Positions 49,111 to 57,766 of a DNA stretch of 64,000 nucleotides are shown in pieces (the stretch's first letter is position 1; the number at the start of each line of letters is the position of its first letter). Position numbers and translations under genes: made by a program. The stretch comes from Candidatus Zixiibacteriota bacterium (lineage in GTDB: Bacteria; Zixibacteria; MSB-5A5; SM23-73-2): contig JAUWYR010000004.1 in NCBI GenBank assembly GCA_030615745.1, forward strand, positions 9,838 to 73,837, written 5' to 3'. Below the pieces are notes generated by a model. It did no database searches. It was not told where the DNA came from and worked only from the letters and a program-made list of their open reading frames with translations.

Positions 49111-49185
49111 GTAAAGCTAAAGCTTTACACTCCAAAAAGATAGACTGAGTTTTTTGTTTTTCTGAAAAGATAAAACTTTCTTGAC
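49111..49185 (+). repeat. repeat GTAAAGCTAAAGCTTTACACTCCA...TTTTTCTGAAAAG (copy 2)
   Basis: see 44822-44890. Confidence 0.5.
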
Positions 49186-49280
49186 AACTATCCTAAATCT
49201 TTTATATTTTTAACCGTAATAAATGGGTGGGGTGGTGGGGTTCTAATACCTAATACCTACCACCTAACACCTAAAAGAAC

Positions 49281-49357
49281 CGGGGTGTAGCGCAGTCTGG
49301 TAGCGCACATGGTTTGGGACCATGGTGTCGGAGGTTCAAATCCTCTCACCCCGACCA
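49281..49357 (+). tRNA. tRNA-Pro (anticodon TGG), CCA encoded
   Basis: acceptor CGGGGTG/CACCCCG, D-arm GCGC-AGTCTGGTA-GCGC, anticodon arm CATGG-TTTGGGA-CCATG, T-arm GGAGG-TTCAAAT-CCTCT, ACCA. Confidence 0.85.
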
Positions 49358-49450
49358 GAGAAAGTTGGAAAACAGCAAACTGTTCACAGCTAACAGTAGA
49401 AAGTTTCGTAAAAACTGTGAACTGTTAACCGTTTACTGTGAACAGAAACT

Positions 49451-49524
49451 GCCCCCGTAGCTCAGTTGGATAGAGCATCTGCCTTCTAAGCAGAGGGTCG
49501 CCTGTTCGAGTCAGGCCGGGGGTA
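49451..49524 (+). tRNA. tRNA-Arg (anticodon TCT)
   Basis: acceptor GCCCCCG/CGGGGGT, anticodon arm TCTGC-CTTCTAA-GCAGA, T-arm GCCTG-TTCGAGT-CAGGC. Confidence 0.85.
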
Positions 49525-49615
49525 GCTGGAGTAAGTAAACAGAAAACAGTATACGGTAAACAGTAAAAGATTTTTTTCTGTATACTGTTTACTGTGAACT
49601 GTCTACTGACAACAC

Positions 49616-49693
49616 GGTGGGTGTAGCTCAGTTGGTTAGAGCACCAGGTTGTGGCCCTGGTGGTCGCGGGTTCAAGTCCCGTCATCCACCCCA
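49616..49693 (+). tRNA. tRNA-His (anticodon GTG) with encoded G-1 and CCA
   Basis: G-1 + acceptor GTGGGTG/CATCCAC, anticodon arm CCAGG-TTGTGGC-CCTGG, T-arm GCGGG-TTCAAGT-CCCGT, discriminator C, CCA. Confidence 0.85.
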
Positions 49694-50420
49694 TTTTTCA
49701 GTTTTGTTCCCTTCGGCTAATAAGTCGAAGGGCTTTCTGTATGTGGGATAAAGAGTTCCGTCAATTACTTGACAGTTCGAAAGTAGAAAATTGAGAAGTT
49801 TCCTTTTCTCTGGGGCTTCTTGCTTCTGATATAGAAAATACGCTTTGCTGGCGAGTTCTAAGATTTTGATTCCCTCATCGAAGTAGCTTTTATTGGCATT
49901 TTGATGACATTGAATTTCGGATAGTATTCTTGACTGCTCCTCTATCCATTGTTCTGATTTTCTGTTCCAGAATTCCTCTGTGATTTTACCTTCGAGTTTG
50001 TCCTCATAGGCTTGGTCAAGCTTTTGTTGAAGTTTTTTATGCCGTAAGGTGAGCTTGCCTATCATCTCATCGTGATATGCTTTCTCGTCAACGTGACTTG
50101 CTTTTAAGGCTTCTTTGATCCATTCCAGTTTTGCATCATCGATTACTATTTTTTTAACCACCTGACCAAGTTTGTCCTCAAGTAACTCTTCCCGGATATA
50201 TGCTTTCTCACATTTTCCCTTGGAACCGGTGCAGTGATAGTAGATGTATCTATTCTTCTGTATTTCTGCGGTGATGGAACAACCGCAGCGTCCACAGGTC
50301 AAAAGTCCAACAAAGGCGAAATTCCTCTTTTTCGGCTTGGGCTTATTGTGGTTTTTGAATACTTCCTGAACTTTTTCGAAAAGCTTTTTAGTTATGATCG
50401 GTGGATGCTTGCCTGAATAT
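49682..50420 (-). pseudogene. large serine recombinase, C-terminal fragment only (recombinase domain end + zinc beta-ribbon + coiled-coil); N-terminal catalytic domain missing
   Basis: zinc ribbon CGRCGCSITAEIQKNRYIYYHCTGSKGKCEK; open frame continues upstream to 50420 (...KPKPKKRNFAFVGLLTCGRCG) without ATG or resolvase catalytic domain; 3' end overlaps tRNA-His by 12 nt. Confidence 0.7.
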
Positions 50421-50608
50421 CAAAAGCGCTAAAGTCATGATAACAGATTTATTTTAAGAGAATGGGATTATTTTATTTCGGTCACTTTTTTTACTTGACA
50501 AAAATTGTGGTTGTATTATATTTTAATAAAGAGAGCAAGTCATTTTAACAATAAACTTTATAAGAATTGAATGGCGCAAACCTTGAAAAAACAAGGAGGC
50601 GATTTTAA

Positions 50609-52261
50609 ATGAAGAAAAAACTTCTTGTCGTTCTTTTGTGTTTGACTTTCCTGCTTATCTTTCCGGGACTGGCAAAAGCTCAGTTCGGTTCGATTTCTGG
50701 GAAAGTAACAGATGAAGAGACTGGGTTTCCTATCATGGGAGCTCACGTTTGGGCAAGAGCAGATACTACCCAACCGGGGGGATATGGATTCGGTATAACC
50801 GATACTTTAGGATTGTATGTAATTGACAGTCTCGATGCTGGAGAATTTCTGGTCTCGTCTTCTGCCCTGGGATATGAAGACGAGAATTATCCTGAATCCG
50901 TGATTGTGGCAGCTGCTGAGAATACGCCAGATATCGATTTTGCTCTCACCCCTGCAGAAGCGACCGGTTCTATTTCCGGGATGGTTACAGATGGAGAAAC
51001 CGGTCTCCCACTTCCTATGGCTCACGTCTGTGCTTATGGTAGTACTCATGTCGAAGGGGATGCTTGGACGGACACTGCCGGATATTATCTCATACAGAAC
51101 CTTGTCGCTGGACAGTATATAGTAGGAGTTCATAAGAACGGATATGAAGATGAGGTCTATCCCGAATCGGTGACTGTTGAGGAGGGGCAGAATATACCTG
51201 ATATAGATTTCGCTTTGACCCCCATAGGTGAATATGGTTCAATTTCAGGTTGGGTAACAGACGAACAGACAGCACTCCCACTTCCCATGGCTCATGTCTG
51301 GGCATATGATAGCGTTGCTCGCTTCGGAGAGGATAGTTGGACCGATACAGCTGGATACTATCTCATACAAAACCTAACAGCTGGGCAGTATGCAGTTGGA
51401 GCTCATAAGAGTGGATACGAAATTGGGTTTTATCCGGAATTGGTTGCTGTTGAGGAGGGACAGAATACGCCTGATATAGATTTCGCTTTGACTCCAACAG
51501 GTGAGTACGGCTCAATTATAGGCTGGGTCGGTGATGAAGAGACCGGTCTCCCCATTATCATGGCTTACCTGAGAGCCATAGGTTTGGATGATGAAATTTG
51601 CGGGGAGGCTTGGAGCGATACCAGCGGTCAATACGGAATCTTAGATCTTCCCCCCGGGATTTACCGCGTCGTGGTCAGCAAAGATGGTTATGCTCCAGAA
51701 ACCTATCCTGATTCGGTAATTGTGGTTGCCGGGCAGAATACACCCCATATTGATTTTTCTCTGACTCCAATAGGTGAGTACGGATCAATTTCTGGGAGGG
51801 TTACCGATGAAGAGACTGGTCTTCCGATCAGCATGGCTTATCTTTTAGCCATAGGCTTGGATAACTGGTGTTATGCAGAGGCCTGGAGTGATACCAGCGG
51901 TTATTATACTATCCAATACCTGTGTACTGGCATTTACCAGGTCAACGTGCATGTAATAGGCTATATTCCAGAAAGCTATCCCGATTCAGTGATGGTGTTA
52001 GCTGGTGAAAATACCTCAGACATCGACTTTGCTCTTACATCTATTTATTTTGGTGATGTTACTGGAGATGGAAATATCAACCTTACTGACGCTATCTATC
52101 TGGCAAATTATTGTCTAAAAGCTGGTCCTGCTCCTGAACCTTTAGAAGCCGGAGAGGTCAACTGCGACGACGAAATAAATTTATCAGATGTGATATACTT
52201 GGCGAACTATTTGTTGAAAGGTGGACCCGCTCCACACCATTGCGGAAACTATCAATTTTAG
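50609..52261 (+). CDS. secreted protein: signal peptide, 5 x CarboxypepD_reg-like ~91-aa repeats, C-terminal dockerin (two EF-hand-like segments)
   Basis: repeats GSISGxVTDEETGLPxxMAHVWA...GYEDExYPESVxV..GQNxPDIDFALTP; dockerin GDVTGDGNINLTDAIYLANYCLK / VNCDDEINLSDVIYLANYLLKGG. Confidence 0.75.
   Translation: MKKKLLVVLLCLTFLLIFPGLAKAQFGSISGKVTDEETGFPIMGAHVWARADTTQPGGYGFGITDTLGLYVIDSLDAGEFLVSSSALGYEDENYPESVIVAAAENTPDIDFALTPAEATGSISGMVTDGETGLPLPMAHVCAYGSTHVEGDAWTDTAGYYLIQNLVAGQYIVGVHKNGYEDEVYPESVTVEEGQNIPDIDFALTPIGEYGSISGWVTDEQTALPLPMAHVWAYDSVARFGEDSWTDTAGYYLIQNLTAGQYAVGAHKSGYEIGFYPELVAVEEGQNTPDIDFALTPTGEYGSIIGWVGDEETGLPIIMAYLRAIGLDDEICGEAWSDTSGQYGILDLPPGIYRVVVSKDGYAPETYPDSVIVVAGQNTPHIDFSLTPIGEYGSISGRVTDEETGLPISMAYLLAIGLDNWCYAEAWSDTSGYYTIQYLCTGIYQVNVHVIGYIPESYPDSVMVLAGENTSDIDFALTSIYFGDVTGDGNINLTDAIYLANYCLKAGPAPEPLEAGEVNCDDEINLSDVIYLANYLLKGGPAPHHCGNYQF
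50684..52043 (+). repeat. intragenic ~273-nt tandem repeats x5
   Basis: near-identical DNA blocks e.g. GAGGAGGGGCAGAATA(C)CCTGATATAGATTTCGCTTTGACCCC at 51180 and 51455. Confidence 0.6.
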
Positions 52262-52881
52262 CTTTGGGGAAGTTTTGATCAATTACCAATGCTGTGAAAA
52301 GGTTTTAAAGATTAAGCAATCATAAAAAGCCTTTAGATTTTTGTTGAATTTTACACGCACAAGGGTTCCCTTATTCAAAAAGAAAGGGGCAGGGGGTGGA
52401 CATACCCCCTCCGACGATTGAGATTATATAGATTCCAACAGCTGAGAAGTATCAGGTATCTGTTCTTCTGTTGTTGCCAAATAAGTTCTAAGACCGTCCA
52501 CTACTCCACCCTTTGTTTTAATTGAACTCAGATTTTTGTGTATTTTTATGGATTATTAAATTGCTACACCGCACCCTTTGATCCTTAGAGAAAAAAATAT
52601 AGGCAAAGTCCTCTTCAAAAAACTTTTCAAGCCGACCATCTCATTTCTCTTGAAAAAATGTCTTGATTTATATTCTTTAGTAGGGATCGAGCAAAGTTTA
52701 GCTAAAACGTAACCAAGACTTTTTCTGGATTTTTTCATAATCTTTGATTATCTATGCAACAATTCATCTAAACTCAGAGTATATAGAATTTAAAGCGGAA
52801 TGATCTCCATTCTGCGCAAGACTTGAACTCGATAAAAAGAGGTATTTTGTGGAAAAGCACTAAAAGCCTAAAGGAGCTGTT

Positions 52882-53775
52882 ATGAAAAAGTATTTTGTAT
52901 TTTTAGTGATATTTTTAATCATCAATGTTCATAATTCCTTGGCTTCTTATTTAAATATCACTTTTCGGGGTATTGGTTTAAGTATAGGAAATTCAAAGAA
53001 AGCGAATGGAATACGTTTGAATTTTGTTGATAATGAGGTTGAAAAAATAAATGGTCTCAACTTAACGTTATGGAAGCCAAAAGATAACTCAGATGCTATA
53101 ATGAATGGTTTTGCCTTGGGAGTAATAGGACCAGAAGTCAAGGATATAAACGGTCTTGCCTTGGGTGGAGTTGGAGTGGTCACAGAAAAGATGAATGGTG
53201 TTTCTTTTGGGTTAATTGGAGTTACGTCCACGGAAATAAATGGAATAACAATTGGAGGTATCGGGGTGGCAAATGATAACTTAAAGGGAATAGCAATCGG
53301 AGGGATCGGAGTGGCAAATCAAGACGTCAATGGAATAACAGTTGGTGGTGTCGGGGTAGCAAACCAGAACTTAAATGGAATAGCGATAGGTGGTATTGGT
53401 GTGGCAAATCAAGATGTGGATGGGATAGCAATAGGAGGGATCGGAGTGGCAAATCAAGACCTGAATGGGATAGCCATCGGTGGTATTGGGGTAGGTAGCC
53501 AGAATGTAAATGGAATAGTAATCGGAGGGGTAGGGGTAGGGGCACAGGACATAACAGGTTTTGTATTCGGAGGAGTACATGTGAAGTCTAATAGTTTAAC
53601 TGGCTTAGGAATAGGAGGATACTGCAAGCTAAAAGAAAACCTGAATGGCGTTTCTATTGGAATATTTAATTATACCAGACATCTTGAGGGTGTGCAAATC
53701 GGTATTCTTAATTACTGTGGAAACAACCCGAAGCCTTTGAGATTATTGCCGATTATCAATGTGCATATTGATTGA
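52882..53775 (+). CDS. secreted protein built of 14-aa repeats (NGIAIGGIGVANQD)n; unknown family
   Basis: signal peptide; >=12 consecutive 14-aa units, 7 nearly perfect; C-terminal GVQIGILNY motif. Confidence 0.65.
   Translation: MKKYFVFLVIFLIINVHNSLASYLNITFRGIGLSIGNSKKANGIRLNFVDNEVEKINGLNLTLWKPKDNSDAIMNGFALGVIGPEVKDINGLALGGVGVVTEKMNGVSFGLIGVTSTEINGITIGGIGVANDNLKGIAIGGIGVANQDVNGITVGGVGVANQNLNGIAIGGIGVANQDVDGIAIGGIGVANQDLNGIAIGGIGVGSQNVNGIVIGGVGVGAQDITGFVFGGVHVKSNSLTGLGIGGYCKLKENLNGVSIGIFNYTRHLEGVQIGILNYCGNNPKPLRLLPIINVHID
53245..53548 (+). repeat. 42-nt perfect-period tandem repeat x7
   Basis: AATGGAATAGCAATCGGAGGGATCGGAGTGGCAAATCAAGAC-type units in register. Confidence 0.75.
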
Positions 53776-53851
53776 AGGCGTGGATTTCACCTTGTTATAA
53801 TAGACAATATTAGATAGCCACTGTCTATTCAAAACCCTAACTTTAATTAGT

Positions 53852-53881
53852 TGTGTCAGGAGCTTTACTCCTGACACAACC
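53852..53881. other. hairpin TTGTGTCAGGAGCTTTACTCCTGACACAAC, repeated downstream of both island genes
   Basis: related copy GGTGTCAGGACTGAGAGATCCTGACACAAC at 55968-55997. Confidence 0.45.
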
Positions 53882-54197
53882 CAAAAATGGAGTGTAATCA
53901 TTTATGATTGCAGGGATACCGTTTTGGTGGGATGCATTCCTTTCTTTCGTTTGTCAGCATTAGGAAATCCCGACGACAACCAGCCTTAGTAATTCCTATA
54001 CTCAAGGCATCAAAAAGTTCCTTAAAATTTTGAGGGGTTGATGTTCGGTTCCGATTCCCAATTCAAATGAATATTAATATTGACTTTTAGAAAGAACCAA
54101 TTATACTTAGCCTAATCAAGAAGGTGGCTTTAGCTTTGAATAATGTGGTTTTCTCAGTTGGTTTTATATTTAACTTAAATTTCTTTGGAGGTAAGTT

Positions 54198-55808
54198 TTG
54201 CCTAAAATTAAGTCAAGACCTCGATATAGAAAGGCACTAACACCTGCACTCATTATTTGTTTTATAATCGCGGTAATCCTGATTATAGTTTTCAATAAAG
54301 CTTTTTTTCAACCGGTATTTAAAAGAGAGGTTACTATTAAACCTGAGTATCTTGAAAATGAAAGTGAGGAATTGTGGGTTTCCAGATATAACGGACCAGC
54401 AGATGGTAATGATTGGGCTAAGGCTCTGGTGGTGGATGGGTTCGGCAATATCTACGTGACTGGAGAAAGCGAAGGTAAGACCACAGGTAAGGATGTTGCC
54501 ACCATAAAGTACAATGGAAAAGGAGATACCTTATGGGTAAAAAGATACAATGGACCCGTAAATGGCGACGATTGGGGTGCTTTCTTAGCCATAGATGAAT
54601 CTGGAAACGTCTATCTGGCTGGGGGAAGCGAAGGAGAGGGGACAGGTCTTGATTATCTCACCATAAAATATACCCCTTCCGGAGAGGTTATCTGGATGAA
54701 AAGGTATAATGGTTCTGGAAACTCATCTGACAGAGCTTCAGCTTTGGCCATAGACGACTCCGGAAACGTTTACCTTACCGGCGAAAGCGAGGGGGAAGGC
54801 TCAGGCTTTGACTATGCCACTTTGAAGTATGACAAAAATGGTGAGGTTGTTTGGGTCAGAAGATATAATGGGTCTGAAAACGGAAATGACTGCGCTTATG
54901 CTTTAGCTGTTGACGCTTATGGCAATGTTTACCTGACCGGTTACAGCTATGGGGGGTCAACGAGATCCGACTATCTTACCTTAAAATATAATACTTCGGG
55001 TGATCTCCTGTGGGTTAAAAGATTCGATGGATCCCAAAACTCTGTTGACAGAGCTTATGCTTTAGCTGTGGGTATCTCCGGAGATGTATATGTAACCGGA
55101 TATAGTCATGGAGACCAAACAGACAAAAACATTCTTACGATAAAGTACAATTCTTACGGAAAGCTACTCTGGGCGAAAAGATACAATGGATCGGCCAATG
55201 GATTGGACCGGACTCATGCCTTAACTTTGGACAGCTCTGGTAATGTCTATGTAGCTGGACAGAGCCACGGTGTGGTTACCGGCTCTGATTTTGTTACTAT
55301 TAAATATAATCCTTCAGGCGATACTCTCTGGGTGAGAATATACGAAGGTCCTGGAAACCACAACGATTGGGATTTAGCTCATGCTATGGCAGTAGATGAT
55401 TTTGGCAGCATCTATGTTACCGGCGAGAGTCAGGGGACCGGAACAGATCACGACTACGCCACGATAAAGTACGATCTCTCTGGTAATCTCCTCTGGGTTA
55501 GAAGATATAATCAGCCCTCTATTGATAATGCTTTTGCCTTAGCTGTAGATCCCTCTGGTAACGTCTATGTGACCGGATTCAGCTACGGCCCCGGGACCAC
55601 TTCTGATTATGCCACTATCAAATATGGGCAGTTTATAAGAGGAGATGTCAATGGAGATAAAACGATAGATTTAGCTGATGCAATCTACTTAGCAAACTAT
55701 TTACTTAAAGGCGGAGGCCAACCACCTGTCCCGATTTCTCGAGCTAATGCCAACGGGGATGATGCTGTCAACCTATTGGATGTGATACACATAGTGAGCT
55801 ATTATTAG
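54198..55808 (+). CDS. secreted SBBP (beta-propeller) repeat protein with C-terminal dockerin
   Basis: N-terminal TM/signal; ~9 repeats YNGxxNGxDxAxALAVDxSGNVYVTGxSxGxxTGxDYxTIKY; dockerin GDVNGDKTIDLADAIYLANYLLKGG / ANANGDDAVNLLDVIHIV. Confidence 0.75.
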   Translation: MPKIKSRPRYRKALTPALIICFIIAVILIIVFNKAFFQPVFKREVTIKPEYLENESEELWVSRYNGPADGNDWAKALVVDGFGNIYVTGESEGKTTGKDVATIKYNGKGDTLWVKRYNGPVNGDDWGAFLAIDESGNVYLAGGSEGEGTGLDYLTIKYTPSGEVIWMKRYNGSGNSSDRASALAIDDSGNVYLTGESEGEGSGFDYATLKYDKNGEVVWVRRYNGSENGNDCAYALAVDAYGNVYLTGYSYGGSTRSDYLTLKYNTSGDLLWVKRFDGSQNSVDRAYALAVGISGDVYVTGYSHGDQTDKNILTIKYNSYGKLLWAKRYNGSANGLDRTHALTLDSSGNVYVAGQSHGVVTGSDFVTIKYNPSGDTLWVRIYEGPGNHNDWDLAHAMAVDDFGSIYVTGESQGTGTDHDYATIKYDLSGNLLWVRRYNQPSIDNAFALAVDPSGNVYVTGFSYGPGTTSDYATIKYGQFIRGDVNGDKTIDLADAIYLANYLLKGGGQPPVPISRANANGDDAVNLLDVIHIVSYY

Positions 55809-55866
55809 AGAGTAAACGTTAAACGGAAAATAGAAAACAGTTAAAGATGAAAGAAATCCAATTGTT

Positions 55867-55900
55867 GGTGCAGGGGTTTAACCCCTGCACCAGCTTTTGT
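55867..55900 (+). terminator. rho-independent terminator GGTGCAGGGGTTTAACCCCTGCACC + AGCTTTTGTG
   Basis: 10-bp GC-rich stem, T-run; 60 nt after dockerin-protein stop. Confidence 0.45.
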
Positions 55901-56046
55901 GACCATACTCGAACAACTCTTTGCAAATTTCAAACAGTTGCGTCAAAAGCTTTTCTCCTGACGCTTAAAAAGGTGTCAGGACTGAGAGATCCTGACACAA
56001 CACAAAATCATCCAAAGAACCCACCCTTATTAATTTTTCTTGTGTT

Positions 56047-56090
56047 TTCTCTGTTGGTCTTAAGACCAACAGAGAACTAAAATTTTTTAA
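56047..56090. terminator. 14-bp palindrome TTCTCTGTTGGTCTTAAGACCAACAGAGAA + AAATTTTTT at the convergent +/- gene boundary
   Basis: sits between last + gene cluster and stop of pitA (-); plausible bidirectional terminator. Confidence 0.35.
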
Positions 56091-56091
56091 C

Positions 56092-57081
56092 TCACGAAAA
56101 CAATTTTACAAGAAAGTAAAGAAAAGCGGCTATTGCTCCTGAGGCCGGGATGGTGATGACCCAGGCAACCACAATATTTTTAACTATCCCCCATCTCACC
56201 GCGGATAGCTTTTGAGAGGAGCCCGAGCCCATAATCGCTGTTGAGATCACATGGGTTGTGCTGATAGGAATTCCGAACCAGGATATTCCAGCGATAACCG
56301 TTGCTGCAGATGTTTCAGCTGAGAACCCATGAACTGGTTGGAGTTTGAACACTTTTGTTCCCATGGTCTTGATCACCTTCCACCCACCCAAACTGGTTCC
56401 TAAAGCCATGGCAAACGCACATGCTATCATAACCCAGAGTGGAACCTTAAATGCGTCTAGTGCTCCATAGCTTACCAAAGCCATAGTTATGATACCCATA
56501 GCGTTCTGAGCATCATTCATCCCGTGAGAAAAGGACATCCAGGCAGCGGATAATATCTGAAATTTTTTGAAATAATTGTTGACCTTTCTTGGATTCGACC
56601 TTTGGAAAAGCCATGATATAACAACGATCAATAAAATCCCTCCTAAAAACCCAAAAACAGGAGAAAGAATCATCGCAATTGCAATTTTTTTAATTCCACC
56701 TATCATTATAATTTTAAACCCTGCCTCAACGATGCCTACGCCTAAAAGTCCTCCTATTAAAGAATGGGTAACACTGACGGGAATACCGGAAAAGCTTGCA
56801 AGACCGGTCCAGAAACTGGCACCTAACAATGCCACTAAGACCATAACCAGATTCACATAAGAGGGATCAATCACCCCCTTCCCTATTGTAGCAGCAACTG
56901 CAGTATGGGATAAAGCACCAAAAAAATTCAAAGCCCTTGCCATGAAAATTGCACTTCGTGGGGAAAGCGCTTTGGTGGAAATGGTTGTGGCTATGGCATT
57001 AGCACAATCATTAAAACCATTAAAGAAATCGTAGACTAACGCCGCAAAGATTATAGCTAAAAGTAAAACAAACTCAGGCAC
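56092..57081 (-). CDS. pitA: inorganic phosphate transporter (PiT/PHO4 family)
   Basis: 10-12 TM, duplicated GANDxxN-like motifs (GFNDCANA; GMNDAQNA). Confidence 0.88.
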   Translation of the reverse strand: MPEFVLLLAIIFAALVYDFFNGFNDCANAIATTISTKALSPRSAIFMARALNFFGALSHTAVAATIGKGVIDPSYVNLVMVLVALLGASFWTGLASFSGIPVSVTHSLIGGLLGVGIVEAGFKIIMIGGIKKIAIAMILSPVFGFLGGILLIVVISWLFQRSNPRKVNNYFKKFQILSAAWMSFSHGMNDAQNAMGIITMALVSYGALDAFKVPLWVMIACAFAMALGTSLGGWKVIKTMGTKVFKLQPVHGFSAETSAATVIAGISWFGIPISTTHVISTAIMGSGSSQKLSAVRWGIVKNIVVAWVITIPASGAIAAFLYFLVKLFS

Positions 57082-57700
57082 TTTTTACTACCACACTCTC
57101 TATAGCTACTGCGATATTCTCACAATGGTCAGCTGCTGTTTCCAGACGACCATATATCTCTTTCCATTTTATTGCCATCCTCCAATCCGGCTCACTATCT
57201 AATAGCTCTGCTGTTGCTTTTCTGGTGATCTCATCTGCTTGATTTTCTAAAGAATTAATCTCAATAAAGAAGGGCAAAAGATTCTCTAAATGCTCTAAAT
57301 CTGATATTGCTTTCTCTATTTGCTCAACCGCTTTATATATGATATTGATCAATTCAATACATTCAGGAGTGAGCTTTTCTATTTTGAAAAAATAAAGCCT
57401 CGCAGAGATACCTTCAATTGCATCCAGAACATCGTCGAGCTCAGATGCTAAAATATGAATATCCTCCCTGTCTATTGGGGTGATAAATGTCTGATTTAAT
57501 TTCTTTATGATCTCATGAATGATTCTGTCCCCCTCGTGCTCTATCTCTTTTATCCTCTTAACCTTCGCTTCAACATCAGTGTAATCATCTGCAAGACTTT
57601 TTAAAGTCTTAGCCCCCTCCAAAAGATTTTTCGCAGATTTTCTGAGTAGCTCAAAAAATTTCTCCTCTTTAGGTAGAAGTCTTGGAAGTTTTATCATCAA
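57074..57700 (-). CDS. DUF47 (PhoU-like Pit accessory protein, YkaA family)
   Basis: 208-aa helical protein directly upstream of and overlapping pitA, canonical pair. Confidence 0.75.
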   Translation of the reverse strand: MMIKLPRLLPKEEKFFELLRKSAKNLLEGAKTLKSLADDYTDVEAKVKRIKEIEHEGDRIIHEIIKKLNQTFITPIDREDIHILASELDDVLDAIEGISARLYFFKIEKLTPECIELINIIYKAVEQIEKAISDLEHLENLLPFFIEINSLENQADEITRKATAELLDSEPDWRMAIKWKEIYGRLETAADHCENIAVAIESVVVKSA

Positions 57701-57766
57701 ATCTTCTCCTTAGCTAAAATTTAAGAACTGAATATAATAAAAAACTTCAAAAATCCAAAAGTTTTT

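What the first reader, a model, noticed from the sequence alone, without database searches (positions are those of the whole stretch)
49281..50420. Truncated large serine recombinase overlapping the 3' end of tRNA-His marks an integrated-element scar and the start of an accessory island
The minus-strand ORF 49682-50420 encodes only the zinc-ribbon and coiled-coil C-terminus of a large serine recombinase. The catalytic resolvase domain is absent, and the frame is open upstream to 50420 without a start codon. Its stop lies 12 nt inside tRNA-His (49616-49693), the last gene of a Pro/Arg/His tRNA cluster. Integrative elements typically carry the tRNA 3' end in attP, so this geometry is the classical signature of integration at a tRNA followed by decay. 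Immediately downstream (50.6-55.8 kb) lie three secreted repeat proteins not seen elsewhere in the window. The housekeeping synteny resumes only on the other strand.
Basis: partly seen in the sequence, partly recalled or inferred. Interest (0 to 1): 0.65.

Follow-up and report, generated by a model that had tools for sequence, protein, structure and literature searches.

The report
Dead serine integrase stub at tRNA-His
A 245-codon leftover of a serine-type integrase gene sits against tRNA-His in a Zixibacteria genome; the scar is ordinary decay, but it comes from a widespread, barely described integrase lineage that inserts into the last few bases of tRNA genes.

Summary
On the minus strand, 49685-50419 is an open frame of 245 codons. 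It holds the end of the recombinase domain, the zinc ribbon and the coiled coil of a large serine recombinase (LSR). Its stop codon lies 12 nt inside tRNA-His. No catalytic part exists anywhere in the window, so this is a deletion, not a frameshift.

Comparison explains the geometry. In 66 of 83 related loci from more than ten phyla, the recombinase ORF ends inside an antisense tRNA gene (Asn, Gln, His, Asp, Ser, Arg, Glu). In 61 of these 66, the tRNA's CCA end is read as an in-frame Trp codon. Close relatives with and without the tRNA stop matching 6-10 nt inside the tRNA. These elements therefore carry at most about 10 nt of the tRNA, and no detectable attR repeat is expected.

An intact His-type relative (L157) carries defence genes (SoFic, a Type IIG restriction-modification enzyme). 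Other relatives show stepwise decay towards the tRNA.

The "accessory island" claim is only partly supported. Window 49.7-57.75 kb, which includes pitA and a phoU-like gene, is replaced by other genes in the closest relative. However, its codon usage is host-like, and nothing links the secreted-protein genes to the element.

The parts
49181..49208 (+). sigma-70-like promoter (TTGACA-16-TATATT) upstream of the tRNA Pro/Arg/His cluster
   Evidence: 11 of 12 consensus matches. The surrounding leader is conserved in relative L152.
49281..49357 (+). tRNA-Pro(TGG)
49450..49526 (+). tRNA-Arg(TCT)
49617..49693 (+). tRNA-His(GTG) with G-1 and an encoded CCA. It was the integration target (attB), and its last ~10 nt are inferred to be element-derived.
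   Evidence: homology breakpoints in relatives
49682..49693 (.). 12-nt overlap of the recombinase ORF end (TGG GGT GGA TGA = W G G stop) with the tRNA-His 3' end. The Trp codon at 49691-49693 is the antisense of CCA.
   Evidence: The same in-frame TGG=CCA arrangement occurs in 61 of 66 related loci.
49709..49732 (+). terminator-like hairpin (10-bp stem, 6 GC pairs) 16 nt after tRNA-His, followed by CTTTCTGT. It lies inside the recombinase remnant, antisense to the codons for P-F-D-L-L-A-E-G.
   Evidence: fold z = -4.3
49682..50419 (-). remnant of a large serine recombinase gene: 245 sense codons plus stop, equivalent to residues 237-481 of the full-length relative in L004
50174..50314 (-). zinc-ribbon domain (fragment residues 36-82)
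   Evidence: PF13408; beta strands at residues 40-63
49889..50137 (-). coiled-coil hairpin (fragment residues 95-177)
   Evidence: helices 95-142 and 148-177; matches to LSR-DNA complexes
50419..50422 (-). deletion junction. Homology to all relatives stops at 50419/50420, and an in-frame TGA follows at 50420-50422.
50495..50522 (+). sigma-70-like promoter of the first secreted-protein gene, 75 bp beyond the junction
50423..57750 (.). lineage-specific segment that adjoins the scar; its link to the element is unproven. It holds a CarboxypepD_reg/dockerin protein (50609-52261), a Gly-rich repeat protein (52882-53775), an SBBP-propeller/dockerin protein (54198-55808), pitA (56092-57081, minus strand) and a PhoU_div gene (57074-57700, minus strand).
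   Evidence: Synteny with L152 is lost at about 49.63 kb and regained at 57.75 kb. Codon usage is host-like.

Best explanation
The ORF is a non-functional stub of the integrase gene of an integrative element that once sat at tRNA-His.

The integrase belonged to a lineage of large serine recombinases whose attB is the extreme 3' end of a tRNA gene. The integrase gene lies at the very edge of the element and reads towards the tRNA. The crossover is inferred to lie about 6-10 nt inside the tRNA, in the 3' strand of the acceptor stem. After integration, the integrase ORF therefore runs into the antisense tRNA. The tRNA's CCA becomes a Trp codon, and the ORF stops a few codons later.

In the window's lineage, a deletion coming from the far side then removed the rest of the element. 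It took all cargo, the catalytic domain and most of the recombinase domain, and ended at 50419/50420. The tRNA-proximal 740 bp survived. It probably survived because it is young and because it now supplies the last bases of tRNA-His and the hairpin that probably terminates the tRNA operon.

Shown: the anatomy, the family-wide geometry, the homology breakpoints, the absence of the N-terminal part, and the absence of the stub in the closest relative. Inferred: the exact crossover position, the order of events, and why the stub is retained.
For: Domain content and fold of the fragment identify it as an LSR C-terminus. It corresponds to residues 237-481 of a 481-aa relative that has the catalytic motif ARVSSKEQ. 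Full-length members have Resolvase + Recombinase + Zn_ribbon domains.

No N-terminal coding remnant exists in any frame of the 64-kb window.

In 66 of 83 related loci, an antisense tRNA overlaps the ORF end. In 61 of those 66, CCA is an in-frame TGG, and the spacing from the PFD motif to the tRNA end is quantised at 39, 84 or 93 nt. The window has 39 nt. A metagenome scan adds 13 more loci at tRNA-His, Arg, Ser and Gln.

Seven pairs of close relatives, mostly one with and one without a complete tRNA, lose homology 6-10 nt inside the tRNA.

The His-type copies form a decay series:
- L157 is intact and carries defence cargo.
- L004 has its cargo cut down to a Type ISP fragment and a nonsense codon in the integrase.
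- L001/L002 keep about 296 homologous integrase codons, abutting a host kinase gene.
- The window keeps 245 codons.

About 8 of the ~80 genome-scan loci are similar 5'-deleted stubs.

The closest syntenic relative, L152, has the same tRNA cluster but no recombinase.

dN/dS between copies is 0.09-0.13 (NG86). Most of the divergence therefore arose while the genes were functional, and the truncations are recent and independent.
Against: The frame has no stop or frameshift over 245 codons, which could also mean selection on the fragment.

No attR, no cargo and no element end can be identified in the window, so integration followed by deletion is inferred from relatives and not seen directly.

The contig comes from a metagenome assembly, and the junction at 50419/50420 has not been checked against reads.

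The crossover position comes from homology breakpoints in other subfamilies (Asn, Ala and unassigned), not from a His-type attP/attB pair.
Confidence: 0.85

Rival explanations
1. The 7.3 kb to the right of the stub (three secreted-protein genes, pitA, a phoU-like gene) is surviving cargo of the same element. Under this reading, an internal deletion removed only the integrase 5' part and nearby genes, and the island is still there.
For: The segment 49.7-57.75 kb is replaced by a different 8.3 kb in the closest syntenic relative L152, and by a kinase module in L001. The integrase always sits at the tRNA-proximal edge with the element interior on this side.
Against: GC3 and codon usage of all five genes fall within about 1.1 sd of the window mean. 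The intact His-type relative carries defence genes instead: SoFic, a Type IIG restriction-modification enzyme, CapH/CapP-like regulators and a tyrosine recombinase. Dockerin-tagged secreted proteins are found on the host side of tRNA-His in L157 and elsewhere in Zixibacteria contigs. An SBBP-repeat protein similar to the window's third gene lies beyond the defence cargo in L157, which fits a host flank. No far-end att site can be found near 57.7 kb.
Confidence: 0.15
2. The fragment is a domesticated, expressed protein (zinc ribbon plus coiled coil without catalysis). It might, for example, bind att-like DNA or block incoming related integrases.
For: The frame is open for 245 codons. A second truncated copy in L001/L002 is also open. 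dN/dS is 0.1-0.2. NCBI annotates a 206-aa product (P0001).
Against: There is no ATG. The only candidate start is TTG at 50302, and it has no nearby Shine-Dalgarno sequence. The truncation points differ between the copies (residue ~237 in the window, ~186 in L001), as random deletions would give. Other stubs in the family start anywhere between residues ~160 and ~306. The low dN/dS is expected if the copies diverged as functional genes in separate elements. My first impression that nearly all homologs are short came from the way the search listed its hits (versus 22, 30).
Confidence: 0.05
3. The junction at 50419/50420 is an assembly chimera of a metagenome-assembled contig, and the real genome has a full-length integrase and element there.
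For: The window comes from a MAG-type contig. Mobile elements often break or confuse assemblies. Only one contig on record carries this exact sequence.
Against: No repeat is present at the junction. The flanks on both sides are colinear with relative L152 at 37.9-49.6 kb and from 57.75 kb. Equivalent internal truncations occur in independent contigs and samples (L001 and L002, and L022, L031, L049, L050, L051, L060, L080).
Confidence: 0.05

Closest known systems
Structurally characterised large serine integrases (Listeria A118/LI integrase 4KIS, phiC31, Bxb1, and the integrase-RDF attL complexes 9y66/9dxf)
   Same: Full-length relatives have the same architecture: Resolvase, then Recombinase domain, then a zinc ribbon with an inserted coiled coil. 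The fragment's model matches these structures best.
   Different: Sequence identity in the structural alignments is 11-21% for these integrases. By sequence, only the N-terminal domain of a full-length relative finds PDB entries. From my own knowledge, these enzymes use attB sites inside protein-coding genes or intergenic DNA, not tRNA genes, and their integrase ORFs do not run across the crossover.
tRNA-gene genomic islands and prophages of tyrosine integrases (the Islander signature)
   Same: The target is the 3' part of a tRNA gene. The integrase gene sits next to the regenerated tRNA. The element restores the tRNA. Decayed remnants are common next to tRNAs.
   Different: The enzyme family differs. 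Tyrosine systems share a long identical core and leave a detectable displaced tRNA fragment: 25-76 bp in M. abscessus prophages (PMC8092301), and this fragment is the basis of Islander (PMC4383910). Here the shared piece is about 6-10 nt, and no fragment is detectable.
The few serine integrases mapped at t(m)RNA genes by TIGER (14 of 297; Mageeney et al. 2020, PMC7192596), and one Paracoccus phage with a serine recombinase predicted at tRNA-Met (PMC6536676)
   Same: These are serine integrases associated with tRNA genes.
   Different: Those reports were treated as needing experimental proof and gave no description of the geometry. Here a coherent clade spanning many phyla shows a fixed ORF/tRNA overlap. 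I could not check whether those 14 belong to this clade.
Integration-dependent immunity of mycobacteriophages, in which attP lies inside a gene so that integration removes a C-terminal ssrA-like tag. This rests on my own knowledge of Broussard et al. 2013; the tags are mentioned in PMC8092301.
   Same: The crossover lies inside an ORF, so the free and integrated forms of the protein have different C-termini. In a distant phage-borne branch, the free-form integrase tails end in -LAA, -KAA, -xVA or -xCA.
   Different: In mycobacteriophages the recombinase is a tyrosine integrase and the gene that is cut is the repressor. In the window's own clade, no such tag is seen on the forms without a tRNA.

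Membership tests
Large serine recombinase (serine integrase) | N-terminal resolvase-type catalytic domain with the serine nucleophile (PF00239) | tested here: not met
   Absent from the fragment and from all six frames of the window. Present in full-length relatives. The window ORF is therefore derived from an LSR gene but is not a functional member.
Large serine recombinase (serine integrase) | Recombinase domain (PF07508) | tested here: not met
   Only profile positions 80-100 of 102 are present. The score is 20.6 bits, below the 21.1-bit cut-off.
Large serine recombinase (serine integrase) | Zinc-ribbon domain (PF13408) with Cys pairs | tested here: met
   E=5.5e-11, 43 bits. The Cys residues are invariant in alignment A1.
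Large serine recombinase (serine integrase) | Coiled-coil hairpin inserted in the zinc-ribbon domain | tested here: met
   The model has helices at 95-142 and 148-177. The top PDB matches are LSR-DNA complexes.
tRNA-3'-end-targeting LSR clade (as delineated here) | The ORF ends inside an antisense tRNA gene, and the tRNA's CCA is read as an in-frame Trp codon | tested here: met
   The window reads TGG GGT GGA TGA over 49682-49693. 61 of 66 relatives show the same arrangement.
tRNA-3'-end-targeting LSR clade (as delineated here) | Fixed spacing between the conserved PFD motif and the tRNA 3' end (39, 84 or 93 nt) | tested here: met
   There are 13 codons (39 nt) from the P of PFD to the Trp codon. 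This is the short-linker class, as in the other His-type loci.
tRNA-3'-end-targeting LSR clade (as delineated here) | Recombination between the tRNA 3' end (attB) and an attP at the end of the integrase gene | not testable with these tools
   Only inferred, from homology breakpoints 6-10 nt inside the tRNA in seven pairs of relatives.
tRNA-linked genomic island (Islander-type signature) | Intact tRNA at one end and a displaced 3' tRNA fragment (direct repeat) at the other | tested here: not met
   No second copy of the last 14-25 nt of tRNA-His exists, even with mismatches allowed. No + strand copy of the last 8 nt lies downstream.
tRNA-linked genomic island (Islander-type signature) | Sporadic presence among relatives | tested here: met
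   L152 lacks the stub and has different genes between the same flanks. L001 has yet another arrangement.
tRNA-linked genomic island (Islander-type signature) | Foreign composition of the island genes | tested here: not met
   The GC3 and codon-usage distance of the five genes lie within about 1.1 sd of the window mean. The stub itself is only mildly atypical, at z = 1.4 and 1.6.

The most novel reading that the evidence does not exclude
The stub is a relic of an essentially uncharacterised lineage of serine integrases that spans many phyla and uses the last ~10 nt of tRNA genes as attB. Because the crossover lies inside the integrase's own reading frame, integration swaps the enzyme's C-terminal tail. 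In the integrated form, the tail is the antisense tRNA. In the free form of a phage-borne branch, the tail is about 30 residues long and ends in ssrA-like -LAA, -KAA or -xVA. The integrase would then carry a built-in sensor of whether it is integrated, with a degron that is removed on integration. This logic is so far known only for tyrosine-integrase phages.
Probability: 0.3. Interest if true: 0.7.

Novelty: new variant of a known kind. Interest (0 to 1): 0.45.

Why it matters
For this genome, the finding is a small annotation point. The ORF is a pseudogene stub that marks a past integration at tRNA-His, beside a segment that varies between relatives.

The wider value is what the stub points to. 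The papers I could search state that serine integrases were not known to target tRNA genes (PMC4383910), or that the few computational cases need proof (PMC7192596). Here about 80 loci from more than ten phyla show a rigid arrangement: the integrase ORF ends inside the antisense tRNA, and CCA is read as Trp. These include isolates such as Rhodopseudomonas pseudopalustris DSM 123 and Nitrococcus mobilis Nb-231.

Three things would follow if experiments confirm this:
- Serine integrases would gain a set of very conserved, ubiquitous landing sites (tRNA 3' ends) in hard-to-engineer phyla.
- Island-finding tools that look for a long displaced tRNA fragment would be shown to miss this class.
- A possible coupling between integration state and integrase C-terminus could be tested.

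Tried and rejected
1. 'The whole family is naturally truncated or domesticated.' The 120 best hits of the first protein search were all 424 aa or shorter, and almost none had a Resolvase domain. I rejected this idea. Extending frames in 80 genomic loci gave 480-580-aa ORFs in about 60 of them. The exhaustive representative search shows many proteins of ~500 aa, with the query matching residues ~250-495. The first list was biased by how hits were retrieved and by short contigs.

2. A split or frameshifted gene. tblastn with the full-length L004 protein finds nothing N-terminal in the window.

3. An attR search. No 25-mer (up to 3 mismatches), 14-mer (up to 2 mismatches) or downstream 8-mer copy of the tRNA-His end exists. 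No tRNA-derived repeat lies within 10 kb of the integrase in any of 66 related loci. A 10-mer search in L157 gave no more matches than chance.

4. An inverted copy of the tRNA-His end upstream of tRNA-Pro (49221-49239, repeat I10). It is conserved in L152, which has no recombinase, so it is unrelated to the element.

5. A compositional island test. The result was negative.

6. Relatives in cultured phages and plasmids. Only four weak hits in uncultured faecal phages (23-27% identity), and plasmid hits at 31% or less.

7. ssrA-like tails in the window's own clade. None were seen.

8. The literature. I found no description of a tRNA-targeting LSR clade in the searchable library. Subscription-only papers were not searched.

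Full report
**What is in the sequence**

Three tRNA genes lie on the + strand: Pro (49281-49357), Arg (49450-49526) and His (49617-49693). A strong sigma-70-like promoter precedes them at 49181-49208.

On the minus strand, a frame is open from 50419 to 49685, which is 245 codons. An in-frame TGA at 50420-50422 closes it upstream. It ends with W-G-G-stop, encoded as TGG GGT GGA TGA at 49693-49682. This is exactly the reverse complement of the last 12 nt of tRNA-His, CCA included.

Pfam finds the recombinase zinc ribbon and only the last ~20 positions of the Recombinase domain. There is no Resolvase domain. A model built with 20 homologs (pLDDT 81) shows a beta-ribbon and a long helical hairpin. 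Its best PDB matches are all large-serine-recombinase-DNA complexes. The only coordinate error is a 1-nt offset at the tRNA-His start.

**It is a deletion, not a frameshift**

The closest full-length relative is in L004, a Candidatus Zixiibacteriota MAG. It is 77% identical over the fragment, 481 aa long, and has the catalytic motif ARVSSKEQ. The window fragment matches its residues 237-481.

A six-frame search of the whole window finds no trace of residues 1-236. Only 186 bp separate the junction from the next gene. Homology to every relative stops at 50419/50420.

**Why the ORF ends inside the tRNA**

This is a property of the whole lineage, not an accident of this locus. I scanned one genome per species and kept the best 80 loci, which come from Zixibacteria, Omnitrophota, Desulfobacterota, Armatimonadota, Acidobacteriota, Alpha- and Gammaproteobacteria, Nitrospirota, Chloroflexota and others. 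Together with three contigs fetched earlier, this gave 83 loci.

- In 66 of the 83, a tRNA gene lies antisense and overlaps or directly abuts the recombinase ORF end. The targets are Asn (32), Gln (23), His (4), Asp (2), Ser (2), Arg (1), Glu (1) and one with an unassigned anticodon.
- In 61 of those 66, the encoded CCA is an in-frame TGG (Trp) codon.
- The distance from the invariant PFD motif to the tRNA end takes only a few values: 84 nt in most, 39 nt in the short-linker class that includes the window, and 93 nt in a few.
- A metagenome scan added 13 more loci at tRNA-His, Arg, Ser and Gln.
- Full-length members have the canonical Resolvase + Recombinase + Zn-ribbon architecture.

**Where recombination happens (inferred)**

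Seven pairs of close relatives (86-99% nucleotide identity in the integrase 3' region) lose similarity at a sharp point 6-10 nt inside the tRNA, counted from the CCA end. In most of these pairs, one member has a complete tRNA and the other has none.

| Pair | Breakpoint (nt inside the tRNA) |
|---|---|
| L017 / L022 | 9 |
| L016 / L042 | 9 |
| L021 / L035 | 7 |
| L059 / L072 | 10 |
| L111 / L112 | 7 |
| L091 / L096 | 8 |
| L122 / L125 | 6 |

The crossover is therefore most likely in the 3' strand of the acceptor stem, and the element brings only about 10 nt of the tRNA. This explains three results:
- No tRNA-derived direct repeat is found within 10 kb of the integrase in any locus.
- None is found in the window.

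A small consistent hint comes from the window's tRNA-His itself. It has a G5-U68 wobble pair where relatives have A5-U68, while the 50-64 pair covaries cleanly. This is expected if only the last ~9-12 nt came from the element. It is a hint, not proof.

**What the element was**

The intact His-type relative L157 has an integrase 94% identical to L004's and 79% identical to the window stub. Next to the integrase it carries SoFic, a 1049-aa Type IIG/ISP restriction-modification enzyme, a tyrosine recombinase, and CapH/CapP-like regulators. This makes it a defence island.

Other branches of the clade sit in other kinds of element:
- a mobilisable or conjugative element with relaxases, NikA and a coupling protein in Rhodopseudomonas pseudopalustris DSM 123 (L075);
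- a primase-polymerase/D5 helicase element (L017);
- contigs classed as viral in IMG/VR.

No cultured phage or plasmid in the collections has a close relative.

**Decay series**

- L157 is intact.
- L004 keeps the integrase, with one nonsense codon 13 codons before the end, plus only a 141-aa tail of the Type ISP gene.
- L001/L002 are two samples with an integrase 80% identical to the window's. They keep about 296 homologous codons, directly abutting a conserved host kinase gene.
- The window keeps 245 codons.

Across the ~80 loci from the genome scan, about 8 are 5'-deleted stubs of this kind. About 8 more are frameshifted or interrupted, for example by a 2.1-kb insertion in Nitrococcus mobilis (L042).

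Deletions thus eat in from the far side and spare the tRNA-proximal end. A plausible reason is that this end supplies the tRNA's last bases. In the window it also supplies a strong hairpin at 49709-49732, which looks like the tRNA operon's terminator.

Pairwise dN/dS of 0.09-0.13 (NG86) among the window, L001 and L004 copies shows that most divergence arose under purifying selection. Together with the different truncation points, this fits recent, independent truncations better than a domesticated protein.

**The 'accessory island'**

The window belongs to Zixibacteria, judging from the names given to its best homologs. The closest syntenic contig found is L152, whose housekeeping proteins are 60-89% identical. 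It is colinear with the window from 37.9 kb to about 49.63 kb, and again from 57.75 kb, where an ABC-F-type ATPase gene lies on the minus strand.

Between these points, L152 carries a different 8.3 kb: an unknown 431-aa protein, a Ser/Thr kinase and sigma-54 activators. It has no recombinase. L001 shares that kinase module.

Window 49.7-57.75 kb is therefore lineage-specific. Four points argue against it being element cargo:
- All five genes have ordinary GC3 and codon usage for this window.
- Dockerin-tagged secreted proteins are common host genes in these genomes, including on the host side of tRNA-His in L157.
- An SBBP-repeat protein about 50-55% identical to the window's third gene lies beyond the defence cargo in L157.
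- No att-like end is detectable.

I rate the idea that these genes came in with the element at about 0.15.

**Comparison with what is known**

The enzyme type (LSR) and the phenomenon (a decayed integrase next to a tRNA) are both familiar. The combination is not well documented.

- Mageeney et al. found 14 of 297 serine integrases at t(m)RNA genes. [quoted passage not shown]
- The large LSR survey by Durrant et al. does not mention tRNA at all.
- One Paracoccus phage was predicted to use tRNA-Met (PMC6536676).

I found no description of the ORF/tRNA overlap geometry in the searchable library. That library lacks most subscription journals, so earlier descriptions may exist.

**Verdict**

The finding is real, and its core interpretation is right. 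As an object it is an ordinary pseudogene scar. Its interest lies in the lineage it comes from, which deserves an experimental test. Confidence in the scar model is 0.85. Interest is 0.45.

Noticed in passing
IMG/VR loci L090-L119 (e.g. L091:10736-10840, L112:10738-10840): These loci belong to a distant phage-borne branch, 29-36% identical to the window fragment. Where the integrase is internal to a viral contig and no tRNA follows, it has an extra tail of about 30 residues after the breakpoint. In 10 of 13 sequence groups that tail ends in Ala (-LAA, -FAA, -KAA, -AAA, -xVA, -xCA, -NIA). At a 9% background this gives a binomial P of about 8e-9. Prophage-end copies instead read into the antisense tRNA. 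This looks like an ssrA-type degron that integration would remove.
   Followed up: partly
window 49363-49445 and 49530-49613: Both spacers between the tRNA genes are long imperfect hairpins built from ~7-nt units (AAACAGT / TACTGTT). The spacers of the equivalent cluster in L001 are also repeat-built hairpins, but with a different unit (ACGAACC). They may be processing sites, and they appear to evolve as structure rather than sequence.
   Followed up: partly
window ~55.8-56.1 kb: GC skew is positive from 1 to ~56 kb and negative afterwards, and cumulative skew peaks at 55-56 kb. At the same point, genes switch from the + strand to the minus strand, forming a convergent junction between 55808 and 56092. 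This could be the replication terminus or just an effect of gene orientation. I did not search for a dif site.
   Followed up: no
L152:11050-11130: The closest syntenic relative has a tRNA-His-like sequence at the same place, but ARAGORN does not call it. Its anticodon stem and T stem are broken by substitutions, so it appears to be a decayed tRNA-His copy in a genome that has no recombinase stub.
   Followed up: partly
window 49617-49693: The window's tRNA-His has a G5-U68 wobble pair in the acceptor stem, where L001, L004 and L152 have A5-U68. The T-stem pair 50-64 covaries cleanly (C-G versus G-C). This fits a chimeric tRNA whose last ~9-12 nt came from the element.
   Followed up: partly
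L157:1359-9226: The intact His-type element is a compact defence island next to the serine integrase. It carries SoFic (PADLOC E=3.6e-70), a 1049-aa Type IIG/ISP restriction-modification enzyme, CapH/CapP-like HTH and M78 peptidase regulators, and a second recombinase of the tyrosine family.
   Followed up: partly
L042:7110-10801 (Nitrococcus mobilis Nb-231): The integrase gene of this isolate is split. Residues 1-121 and 120-526 are separated by about 2.1 kb of inserted DNA, which I did not examine. The sequence after the Trp codon looks like a different tRNA fragment.
   Followed up: no
window 52882-53775: This 297-aa protein has a signal peptide and is made almost entirely of Gly-rich repeats (GIGVANQDxNGIxIGG). 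It has no Pfam match and no homolog elsewhere in the window or in L001, L004 or L152.
   Followed up: no
L015, L033, L062, L074 (downstream of the integrase): In several genomic loci the integrase is followed by only the 3' part of a tRNA (about 30-60 nt), starting at the D arm, the anticodon arm or the anticodon loop, with no 5' half. These may be serine-integrase elements sitting on tRNA fragments displaced earlier by tyrosine-integrase islands, which would make them tandem arrays.
   Followed up: no
method (versus 22 and 30): The word-indexed protein search listed only N-terminally short proteins among its best 120 hits for this C-terminal query. This suggested a 'truncated family'. Genomic frames and the exhaustive representative search show that most members are full length.
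   Followed up: yes
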